Positions 19,773 to 19,986 of a stretch of 64,000 bases of DNA are shown here, in pieces. Source of the DNA: a virus. Lineage: Duplodnaviria; Heunggongvirae; Uroviricota; Caudoviricetes. The notes below the pieces were generated by a model. It was not told the origin of the DNA. It ran no database searches and saw only the letters and a list, made by a program, of their open reading frames with translations. Location of the stretch: positions 38,553 through 102,552 of the IMG/VR virus record IMGVR_UViG_2778261689_000001; one strand, 5' to 3'. Position numbers and translations under genes: made by a program. How positions within the stretch are numbered: position 1 is the first letter of the stretch; each line of letters begins with the position of its first letter.

Positions 19773-19928
19773 TTACCTTTCAGATTCGTAGGCTGTGAAG
19801 ACAGTGACCTCCGTCTGGCCGGTTCGGATTCGTACCTCGCAGAGGTCTTTCCTCGTTACCAGTGCCGTCACAATGACGGTTAAACAGATGACGATCAGAG
19901 CGATTAACATCGCTTTTTGCTGCTTCAT
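19773..19928 (-). CDS. hok: Hok/Gef-family type I toxin (51 aa)
   Basis: Hand translation MKQQKAMLIALIVICLTVIVTALVTRKDLCEVRIRTGQTEVTVFTAYESER matches the Hok signature (TM helix, then LTRK-x-LCE-x-R-x-R-x-G-x-x-EV-x-x-F-x-AYES). Confidence 0.8.
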   Translation of the reverse strand: MKQQKAMLIALIVICLTVIVTALVTRKDLCEVRIRTGQTEVTVFTAYESER

Positions 19929-19986
19929 AGCCTGCTTCTCCTTGACCTTTTGGTCGGTAAGAGGCTAATCTACGTATGCTAAGCAT
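19780..19986 (-). CDS. Mok-like overlapping reading frame (couples translation of hok)
   Basis: 68-aa ORF in a different frame that starts upstream of and overlaps almost all of hok, the arrangement seen in hok/mok/sok loci. Confidence 0.45.
   Translation of the reverse strand: MLSIRRLASYRPKGQGEAGYEAAKSDVNRSDRHLFNRHCDGTGNEERPLRGTNPNRPDGGHCLHSLRI

What the first reader, a model, noticed from the sequence alone, without database searches (positions are those of the whole stretch)
19773..19986. hok/mok-type type I toxin locus inserted between the structural operon terminator and repL
Seen in sequence: a 51-aa minus-strand ORF translates to MKQQKAMLIALIVICLTVIVTALVTRKDLCEVRIRTGQTEVTVFTAYESER, matching the Hok/Gef signature (N-terminal TM helix, then LTRK-x-LCE-x-R, then AYES). 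A longer overlapping frame (68 aa) starts upstream in another frame, as mok does. Established knowledge: hok loci are post-segregational killing and phage-abortive modules controlled by a short cis-encoded antisense RNA (Sok) that targets the mok start region. I do not recall a hok locus at this position in P1, which uses phd-doc for addiction, so this is probably accessory cargo. Inference: a Sok-like RNA should be encoded on the plus strand around 19940-20020.
Basis: partly seen in the sequence, partly recalled or inferred. Interest (0 to 1): 0.6.

Follow-up and report, generated by a model that had tools for sequence, protein, structure and literature searches.

The report
Hok/Sok toxin–antitoxin in P1-like plasmid
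This is a complete, apparently intact hok/mok/sok RNA-controlled toxin–antitoxin cassette in a known variable slot of a P1-like phage-plasmid; the cassette is real, but it is already annotated in hundreds of public records and so is ordinary.

Summary
A 51-aa Hok/Gef toxin ORF lies at 19773-19928(-) (Pfam E=2.4e-22). A 68-aa mok-like ORF overlaps it out of frame at 19780-19986(-). The hok leader matches Rfam RF01794 at 114.9 bits.

The other expected parts are also present:
- a hok promoter with an extended -10;
- a 12-bp pairing between the 5' end and the 3' end of the mRNA (tac/fbi type);
- a terminal 3' stem-loop;
- a plus-strand Sok gene, with promoter at 19942-19971 and RNA at about 19978-20048.

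Reference P1 and P7 lack the locus. They carry pmgF-rlfB-rlfA between the bplB terminator and repL. Here a 693-bp segment (hok/sok plus an 81-aa membrane ORF) replaces those genes. This is not rare. The hok arrangement is in 229 PLSDB plasmids, against 99 with the P1 arrangement. NCBI's annotation pipeline labels it hokD, and the substitution was noted in 2019.

The closest tested relative, hokW-sokW of prophage Sp5, is a working type I toxin-antitoxin system. The likely roles here are killing of cells that lose the plasmid prophage, help with lysis on induction, or both.

One side finding is more interesting. A third allele, in 125 plasmids, keeps Sok but has lost hok.

The parts
20104..20131 (-). 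Candidate hok promoter: -35 TAGAAA, 16-nt spacer, -10 TACAAT preceded by TG (extended -10). The -35 lies inside the 3' end of ORF81.
   Evidence: Consensus scan, 9 of 12 matches with TG. The -10 aligns with TAGAAT of 933W hokW. The +1 G at 20097 is 6 nt downstream.
19672..20097 (-). Full-length hok (mok-hok) mRNA. It starts at G20097 (start of the Rfam model and of the invariant block) and probably ends at the shared terminator hairpin.
   Evidence: Start of the Rfam alignment. Folds of the 398-nt and 430-nt forms: MFE -154.7 kcal/mol, z = -7.6. The 3' end is inferred, not mapped.
20086..20097 (-). 5' element GGGUGCUUGAGG (tac side), which pairs with fbi in the full-length mRNA.
   Evidence: Pair probabilities 0.90-1.00 with 19713-19725. 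Invariant in 62 distinct homologues.
19713..19725 (-). fbi-like 3' element CCUCAAUGCACCC (fold-back inhibition), the last nucleotides of the mobile hok module.
   Evidence: The helix is paired in 100% of 62 distinct sequences, and the only changes are G-C to G-U. Homology with lambdoid hokW copies ends exactly at 19713.
19780..19986 (-). mok-like ORF (68 aa), out of frame with hok and overlapping it. A GAGG Shine-Dalgarno lies 8 nt upstream of its ATG.
   Evidence: PHROG 37205, E=8e-21.
19773..19928 (-). hok toxin ORF (51 aa; Cys15, Cys30, Tyr47).
   Evidence: Pfam PF01848, E=2.4e-22. 47 of 51 residues identical to HokW of 933W. PGAP names the identical protein WP_001313475.1 'HokD'.
19942..19971 (+). 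Candidate Sok promoter: -35 TTGACC (19942-47), 18-nt spacer, -10 TAATCT (19966-71).
   Evidence: Read from the sequence. It aligns with the region upstream of the annotated sokW. It was not picked up by the stricter consensus scan.
19978..20048 (+). Sok-like antisense RNA, about 71 nt. It has a 5' single-stranded tail of about 14 nt, a long hairpin (19993-20044), and then a CUUUCUUCU tract. It is complementary to the mok Shine-Dalgarno and start codon.
   Evidence: Coordinates transferred from sokW of 933W (L002 1767-1837). Fold -30.4 kcal/mol, z = -4.6, with the same shape as sokW.
19968..19990 (-). Sok-target hairpin holding the mok AUG. It forms only in the 3'-trimmed mRNA. In the full-length form the mok AUG pairs with 19726-19728, next to fbi.
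   Evidence: This is also the most variable stretch among homologues, with 21 variants.
19745..19766 (-). Terminal 3' stem-loop of the processed hok mRNA (UGGCGGGGA-GAGA-UCCUCGCCA). It contains GGATCTCTCC (19751-19760, + strand), the IS186B target duplication reported in pSvP1.
   Evidence: (helix 16, one compensatory pair). PMC6906374 for the IS186B direct repeat.
19676..19695 (.). bplB intrinsic terminator (P1 backbone). It probably also ends the convergent hok transcript.
   Evidence: Terminator scan on the + strand. The hairpin also forms at the end of the 430-nt minus-strand RNA, followed by UUUAAAAU. Minus-strand termination is inferred.
19699..20391 (.). The 693-bp segment that replaces P1's pmgF-rlfB-rlfA. 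The left junction is directly after the terminator T-tract. The right junction is inside the C1 operator Orlf, of which 11 of 17 nt are kept.
   Evidence: blastn junctions. Operator comparison ATTGCTCTAAT|CTGGAG against P1 ATTGCTCTAAT|TATAAC.
20110..20355 (-). ORF81, a small predicted membrane protein of unknown function (PHROG 3772). In the phage collection it is found only in P1-like phages. Its stop codon overlaps the TG of the hok extended -10.
   Evidence: No Pfam, NCBIfam or PADLOC hit.
19785..19791 (-). CUACGAA heptamer around Tyr47 codon UAC followed by G. This is the TACG context described for TadA A-to-I recoding of Tyr to Cys in Hok mRNAs.
   Evidence: The context is described in preprint 10.1101/2025.08.07.668861. 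No stable local hairpin was predicted, and editing was not tested.

Best explanation
Window 19713-20131 is a complete hok/mok/sok type I toxin-antitoxin cassette of the prophage hokW/hokD subfamily. It sits in the variable slot between the bplB terminator and repL of a P1-like phage-plasmid.

Proposed mechanism; the sequence and fold features are shown here, the behaviour is inferred from the R1 and Sp5 systems:
- A weak constitutive promoter with an extended -10 makes a stable mRNA of about 400 nt.
- In that full-length mRNA the 5' end pairs with the 3' fbi element. The mok start region is held by the adjacent 3' segment, so the mRNA is neither translated nor bound by Sok.
- Slow 3' trimming back to the terminal stem-loop releases this lock. 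The hairpin that carries the mok start then forms.
- While the plasmid is present, an unstable plus-strand Sok RNA of about 71 nt pairs with that region, blocks mok translation and therefore the coupled hok translation, and marks the duplex for degradation.
- When Sok synthesis stops, the processed mRNA is translated and Hok depolarises the inner membrane. Sok synthesis could stop through loss of the plasmid prophage, host transcription shut-off by another phage, or prophage induction.

Most likely biological role: a second addiction (post-segregational killing) module beside phd-doc, about 0.45. It may also help lysis on induction, as hokW-sokW does in Sp5, about 0.25. The stated confidence refers to the identity and regulatory design, not to the role.
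For: - Toxin family: Pfam HOK_GEF, E=2.4e-22; PHROG 251.
- Leader RNA: Rfam RF01794, 114.9 bits against a gathering score of 59.
- Promoter with TG-extended -10, 6 nt upstream of the conserved +1.
- 5'-3' pairing with probability 0.90-1.0. The mok AUG is sequestered in the full-length form and released into a hairpin after 3' trimming.
- Fold z-scores of -7.6 and -6.7.
- On 62 distinct homologues, 93.1% of cells are paired against 36-43% for slid controls. Ten pairs show compensatory double changes against 2-3 in controls. The fbi helix is paired in 100% of sequences.
- The Sok candidate has a 5' tail, a hairpin and a U-tract, with the same shape as the annotated sokW.
- The module is 86.5% identical over 397 bp to hokW/sokW of 933W, and Hok matches HokW at 47 of 51 residues.
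- In Sp5, hokW-sokW was shown to be toxic, to be neutralised by sokW RNA (seen by northern blot), and to double phage release after induction (PMC8621323).
- The region is 100% identical in many P1-like plasmids. One of them, pSA186_4, also keeps phd-doc.
- Isolated phages phi456 and Ro157c2YLVW carry the locus.
- The R1 regulatory model is taken from PMC9841398.
Against: - No expression, toxicity or stability data exist for this copy.
- The Sok -10 (TAATCT) is weak and failed the consensus scan.
- The RNAfold model of the trimmed mRNA gives a local 5' hairpin rather than the Rfam/R1 tac stem, so the open conformation is not reproduced exactly.
- The folded structure was derived from one of the aligned sequences, which inflates 'cells paired' (caveat). 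The fbi helix hardly varies, so it offers no compensatory proof.
- Chromosomal hok loci were reported not to mediate post-segregational killing (preprint 10.1101/2025.08.07.668861).
- 125 P1-like plasmids have lost hok at this slot, so the toxin is dispensable.
- Full toxicity might need TadA editing of Tyr47, which is untested.
Confidence: 0.85

Rival explanations
1. The cassette mainly serves the lytic cycle. On induction of the P1-like prophage Sok falls, Hok is made, and membrane damage brings lysis forward or strengthens it and raises phage release, as shown for hokW-sokW in Sp5. Transcription reading through from the C1-controlled kilA-repL operon just upstream could add to this.
For: The closest tested relative does this: Hok matches HokW at 47 of 51 residues and the locus is 86.5% identical in DNA, with the function reported in PMC8621323. 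The locus lies directly downstream of kilA-repL-ORF81 and on the same strand. Only a weak terminator-like hairpin lies between them, at 20138-20153. Infective phages carry the locus.
Against: P1 has its own holin/endolysin system, and reference P1 lyses well without hok. The Sp5 effect was only about two-fold. Read-through is pure inference, and a 5'-extended mRNA might not fold into the active form.
Confidence: 0.25
2. The cassette acts as a defence (abortive infection) module. It protects the lysogen population from other phages whose host shut-off stops Sok synthesis. It occupies a slot that holds other defence candidates in sister elements.
For: R1 hok/sok excludes T4 (Pecota & Wood 1996, as cited in PMC10305079). 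In reference P1 the same slot holds RlfA/RlfB, which match the PADLOC candidate defence system PDC-M04A/B at E=1e-95 and 1e-51.
Against: Hok itself has no PADLOC model hit. A large survey found no enrichment of hok near defence systems (preprint 10.1101/2025.08.07.668861). No data exist for this subfamily.
Confidence: 0.15
3. The cassette is a selfish or decaying passenger that gives the P1-like element no benefit. It spreads by recombination and is often lost.
For: The same hokD-type unit is present in 4739 of 5426 complete E. coli genomes, with a median of 2 copies. The mobile unit equals the transcript itself. State-C elements lost the toxin. In pSvP1, IS186B inserted into the hok 3' stem-loop (PMC6906374).
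Against: Every regulatory element is intact here, and the region is 100% identical in many plasmids from several hosts and countries. Compensatory changes show that selection acts on the mRNA fold.
Confidence: 0.15

Closest known systems
hokW-mokW-sokW of Stx2 phages Sp5 (VT2-Sakai) and 933W
   Same: Same subfamily. The DNA is 86.5-87.6% identical over the whole unit, from the -10 to fbi, and the toxin matches at 47 of 51 residues. The Sok hairpin and the 5' and 3' elements are the same. Toxicity, sokW RNA and a role in lysis were shown experimentally for Sp5 (PMC8621323).
   Different: The host element is a P1-like plasmid prophage, not an integrated lambdoid prophage. A 1-nt indel puts mok out of frame with hok here (68-aa Mok, the arrangement I recall for R1), whereas the annotated mokW is an in-frame extension of hokW. 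The Sok 5' tail and its target differ.
hok/mok/sok (parB) of plasmid R1
   Same: The architecture and the inferred regulation are the same: tac/fbi lock, 3' processing, mok-coupled translation, and an antisense RNA over the mok start (PMC9841398). Both elements are low-copy plasmids.
   Different: The toxin is only distantly similar. HokW, which matches this Hok at 47 of 51 residues, is 44% identical to R1 Hok (PMC8621323). My own alignment used an R1 sequence recalled from memory. Post-segregational killing is shown for R1 but not here.
hokD (relF) of E. coli K-12 Qin prophage
   Same: Nearly the same toxin, and PGAP names this protein HokD.
   Different: K-12-type copies match only query positions 14-243, that is the CDS and 3' part. 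They lack the leader, mok start and Sok. The window copy is complete.
phd-doc of P1
   Same: Both are addiction modules on the same kind of replicon, and they are present together in pSA186_4.
   Different: phd-doc is a type II protein-protein system at a different locus, conserved in P1-like phage-plasmids (PMC9603915). It is unrelated in sequence and mechanism.

Membership tests
[quoted passage not shown] | Small hydrophobic Hok/Gef toxin (about 50 aa, N-terminal transmembrane helix, conserved Cys-Glu core) | tested here: met
   Pfam PF01848, 78.7 bits against a cut-off of 22, covering the full profile. PHROG 251. NCBIfam Hok models hit but below their strict cut-offs: 49.5 against 73.
[quoted passage not shown] | hok mRNA leader with the conserved sequence and structure | tested here: met
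   Rfam RF01794, 114.9 bits against a gathering score of 59, full model 1-157, minus strand 19923-20097.
[quoted passage not shown] | Overlapping upstream mok reading frame whose translation drives hok | tested here: met
   A 68-aa ORF at 19780-19986 in another frame, with GAGG 8 nt upstream of its ATG. Only presence was tested. Translational coupling cannot be tested with these tools.
[quoted passage not shown] | cis-encoded antisense Sok RNA covering the mok translation start | tested here: met
   Promoter-like TTGACC-18-TAATCT, a 5' tail plus terminator hairpin, z = -4.6, collinear with the annotated sokW. Met at sequence level only; the transcript itself was not observed.
[quoted passage not shown] | Long-range 5'-3' tac/fbi pairing that locks the full-length mRNA | tested here: met
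   A 12-bp helix between 20086-20097 and 19713-19725, with pair probability of at least 0.90. Paired in 100% of 62 distinct homologues. The helix hardly varies, so the support is conservation, not covariation.
[quoted passage not shown] | Refolding after 3' trimming that exposes the mok start and the Sok target | tested here: inconclusive
   In silico, trimming frees the mok AUG and forms the target hairpin (19968-19990). The predicted 5' fold, however, is a local hairpin rather than the tac stem of the Rfam/R1 model.
[quoted passage not shown] | Toxicity of Hok and rescue by Sok; post-segregational killing | not testable with these tools
   Shown only for relatives: HokW/sokW (PMC8621323) and HokD and others (preprint 10.1101/2025.08.07.668861).
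Canonical P1/P7 gene set (Punavirus P1 reference genome) | The locus is present in the reference genomes at this position | tested here: not met
   NC_005856 and P7 carry pmgF-rlfB-rlfA here. tblastn with Hok finds nothing in the P1 slot.
P1-like phage-plasmid 'variable region 5' (rlfA-rlfB-pmgF slot) | Alternative cargo between the bplB terminator and repL, with shared junctions | tested here: met
   Three states share the left junction at window 19698. The region is listed as variable in PMC9603915, and the substitution by an 'antibacterial toxin' is noted in PMC6906374.

The most novel reading that the evidence does not exclude
The slot between bplB and repL may be an arena for competition between incompatible P1-like plasmids. 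About half carry the complete hok/sok cassette. About a quarter carry a derived allele that keeps the hok promoter, the leader and a Sok gene but has lost the toxin.

In 673R5 that Sok gene is 100% identical to the one in the window. The Sok recognition variant it carries was seen only in the loci whose homology extends into P1-type flanks. Such an orphan Sok could act as an anti-addiction allele, letting its carrier displace a resident hok+ P1-like plasmid without the host being killed.

The hypervariable Sok-tail/target segment among hok copies would then reflect selection for private toxin-antitoxin specificities. No paper in the searched library describes an orphan Sok or RNA-based anti-addiction for hok.
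Probability: 0.15. Interest if true: 0.55.

Novelty: already known. Interest (0 to 1): 0.2.

Why it matters
For this window it matters little. The cassette belongs to one of the best-studied toxin-antitoxin families. NCBI's pipeline already annotates it as hokD in identical plasmids, and the literature on P1-like elements mentions the substitution in passing.

Three points are useful in practice:
- Reference P1 is not representative at this slot; the hok allele is the commonest in plasmid databases.
- P1-like phage-plasmids, which carry resistance genes, often have two addiction systems, which may help explain their persistence.
- Public records I inspected annotate the toxin only; the Sok RNA, the mok frame and the mRNA elements can now be placed to the nucleotide.

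The orphan-Sok allele in sister elements is the one observation that could lead to a new experiment.

Tried and rejected
- The consensus promoter scan did not find the Sok promoter, because its -10 TAATCT matches only 3 of 6 positions. I placed the promoter by alignment to sokW instead.
- Pfam, NCBIfam and PADLOC gave nothing for ORF81 or Mok. Pfam gave nothing for the 171-210-aa ORF of state-C elements.
- RNAfold of the trimmed mRNA did not reproduce the tac stem of the Rfam consensus.
- Covariation cannot prove the fbi helix in this clade, because both sides are nearly invariant.
- I considered that the minus-strand Rfam 'sok' hit contradicted a plus-strand Sok. I rejected this because the model runs from the mRNA +1 to about the hok start codon, so it describes the leader strand.
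- I considered a simple insertion with target duplication. I rejected it because the junctions show replacement of 1826 bp, with no repeats seen.
- Literature searches for hok in P1 plasmid prophages and for anti-addiction by Sok returned only general reviews.
- Two tool calls failed on syntax and were repeated; three more failed on term format.

Full report
**1. Observation**

A 68-aa ATG ORF at 19780-19986 overlaps it in another frame.

- The peptide matches Pfam HOK_GEF over the whole profile (78.7 bits, E=2.4e-22) and PHROG 251 'MokW-like host killing' (E=4.9e-32).
- A scan of the whole window with Rfam gave one toxin-antitoxin RNA hit, RF01794 'sok', at 19923-20097 on the minus strand: 114.9 bits against a gathering score of 59, E=2e-25.
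- That model starts at GGGUGCUUGAGG and ends near the hok start codon. It therefore describes the hok-leader strand, and Sok itself is read from the opposite strand.
- The same scan found three tRNAs and the C4 RNA with its targets, which mark the window as P1-like.

**2. Replicon and slot**

The region is 99-100% identical to many P1-like plasmids (the one whose typing I read is IncY) and to phages phi456, Ro157c2YLVW and 'Punavirus P1' MH422554. In those records the ORF is annotated 'HokD' or 'MokW'.

Reference P1 (NC_005856) and P7 match only on the flanks. P1 homology covers window 19000-19698 and 20392 onward. Between these points P1 carries pmgF, rlfB and rlfA (1826 bp), whereas the window carries 693 bp.

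- The left junction falls directly after the T-tract of the bplB terminator (19676-19695).
- The right junction falls inside the C1 operator Orlf, of which the first 11 of 17 nt remain.
- The 693 bp consist of the hok unit (19713-20109) and an 81-aa ORF (20110-20355).
- The hok unit is 86.5% identical to hokW/sokW of phage 933W.
- The 81-aa ORF is a predicted membrane protein (PHROG 3772, unknown function). In the phage collection it is found only in P1-like phages.

**3. Anatomy of the locus**

A promoter-like site with a TG-extended -10 (TAGAAA-16-TACAAT, 20131-20104) lies 6 nt upstream of the conserved G at 20097.

The 398-nt RNA from 20097 to 19700 folds at -154.7 kcal/mol, z = -7.6.

- Nucleotides 20097-20086 pair with 19713-19725 with probability 0.90-1.0. 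This is the tac/fbi type of lock.
- In that fold the mok AUG (19986-19984) pairs with 19726-19728, next to fbi.
- When the 3' end is trimmed in silico, both pairings are released and a hairpin carrying the mok AUG forms at 19968-19990.
- The predicted 5' fold of the trimmed RNA is a local hairpin. It resembles the metastable structure described for R1 rather than the tac stem, so this step is only partly reproduced.
- A 9-bp terminal stem-loop lies at 19745-19766.

On the plus strand, TTGACC (19942-47) and TAATCT (19966-71) precede an RNA that aligns with the annotated sokW of 933W. This places Sok at about 19978-20048. Its fold has a single-stranded 5' tail of about 14 nt, a long hairpin and a U-rich tract, with z = -4.6. 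sokW has the same shape. The RNA is complementary to the mok Shine-Dalgarno and start codon.

These features match the regulatory model for R1 hok/sok summarised in PMC9841398.

**4. Conservation test**

Eighty hok loci from IMG/VR were collected. In 56 of them, homology to the window spans exactly mRNA nucleotides 1-385, from the +1 to the last fbi nucleotide. The unit that moves is therefore the transcript itself.

I then counted pairs of the window's predicted fold on 62 distinct sequences.

- 93.1% of cells form standard pairs, against 36-43% when partners are slid by 1-3 columns.
- Ten pairs show changes on both sides, against 2-3 in the slid controls.
- The fbi helix is paired in every sequence, with only G-C to G-U changes.
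- The long-range helix that holds the mok start has three compensatory pairs.

Two caveats apply. The structure came from one of the aligned sequences, and the fbi helix hardly varies.

The most variable stretch of the whole mRNA is 19972-19992, which is the Sok tail and its target. It has 21 variants.

**5. Function**

Nothing has been measured for this copy. The closest tested relative is hokW-sokW of prophage Sp5, a working type I system. HokW is toxic and locates to the inner membrane. sokW RNA is seen by northern blot and neutralises it. After mitomycin C, sokW falls, HokW rises, and phage release is doubled compared with a deletion (PMC8621323).

R1 hok/sok gives post-segregational killing and excludes T4 (PMC9841398; PMC10305079). 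A P1-like plasmid with an identical hok region also keeps phd-doc, so hok/sok is a second module, not a replacement.

I rate addiction as the most likely role (about 0.45). Help with lysis on induction follows (about 0.25), then defence (about 0.15) and no benefit (about 0.15). These roles are not exclusive, because all follow from the same trigger, loss of Sok synthesis.

**6. What is known already**

- PGAP names the identical protein HokD in hundreds of records.
- Venturini et al. [quoted passage not shown]
- PMC9603915 lists rlfA-rlfB-pmgF as one of eight variable regions.
- A 2026 preprint notes type I and type II toxin-antitoxin modules on a P1-like plasmid.
- A survey of Hok reports enrichment in prophages and large plasmids.
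- In PLSDB the hok arrangement is in 229 records, the reference-P1 arrangement in 99, and a third arrangement in 125.
- hokD-type units occur in 4739 of 5426 complete E. coli genomes.

The finding is therefore correct but already known.

**7. Side finding**

The third arrangement occurs in SJ46, RCS47 and 673R5. It has a 171-210-aa ORF with no Pfam family match in place of the hok CDS. It still keeps window-homologous sequence from about 19963 to 20109, which covers the hok promoter, the leader and the Sok gene.

- Rfam still scores this remnant above threshold in two of the three elements: 89.7 bits in 673R5 and 68.5 bits in RCS47.
- No Hok ORF is present in these slots.
- The 673R5 Sok region is 100% identical to the window's.

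A complete cassette must have come before this remnant. An orphan Sok that matches the hok of sister plasmids could act as an anti-addiction allele. This is speculation, and I found no description of it in the searched library.

Noticed in passing
L009 2417-2591, L008 2421-2594, L007 about 2464-2716 (homologous to window 19963-20225): P1-like phages 673R5, RCS47 and SJ46 keep the hok promoter, the leader and the Sok gene but have no hok CDS. A 171-210-aa ORF with no Pfam match sits in its place. This orphan-Sok allele is in 125 PLSDB plasmids, and in 673R5 the Sok region is 100% identical to the window's.
   Followed up: partly
L003 2403-3571 (reference P1 rlfB, rlfA): RlfA and RlfB, described as 'possibly associated with lytic replication', match the PADLOC candidate defence system PDC-M04A/B at E=1e-95 and 1e-51. 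The slot may therefore be a defence or accessory hot spot.
   Followed up: no
window 19972-19992: The Sok 5' tail and its target around the mok start form the most variable stretch among 62 distinct hok mRNAs, with 21 variants. The rest of the mRNA is about 94% conserved. This suggests diversification of antisense specificity between co-resident copies.
   Followed up: partly
window 19785-19791 (minus strand): Tyr47 of Hok is encoded by UAC followed by G, within CUACGAA. From memory, this heptamer is the same as the anticodon loop of tRNA-Arg(ACG), the natural TadA substrate. It fits the reported Tyr-to-Cys recoding of Hok mRNAs by TadA. No stable local hairpin was predicted.
   Followed up: partly
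window 19751-19760: GGATCTCTCC, reported as the IS186B target duplication in pSvP1 (PMC6906374), lies in the terminal 3' stem-loop of the hok mRNA. That insertion therefore hit the hok 3' UTR.
   Followed up: partly
window 20386-20402 (minus strand): The right junction of the substituted segment cuts the P1 C1 operator Orlf. ATTGCTCTAAT is kept and the last 6 nt differ. Whether C1 still binds is unknown.
   Followed up: no
window 20110-20355 (minus strand): ORF81 is a small predicted membrane protein (PHROG 3772). In the phage collection it is found only in P1-like phages, and SJ46 has a 44%-identical homologue in the same place. Its stop codon overlaps the hok extended -10.
   Followed up: partly
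L002 1563-1775 compared with window 19780-19986: A 1-nt indel between the mok and hok start codons makes the annotated mokW of 933W an in-frame N-terminal extension of HokW. In the window, mok is a separate overlapping frame. So there are two coding layouts within one closely related clade.
   Followed up: partly
window 2063-2135, 3775-3847, 3853-3925; 23555-23640; 23709-23761: Three tRNA genes, the C4 antisense RNA and its a1/b1 targets. These are standard P1 features and confirm the backbone.
   Followed up: no
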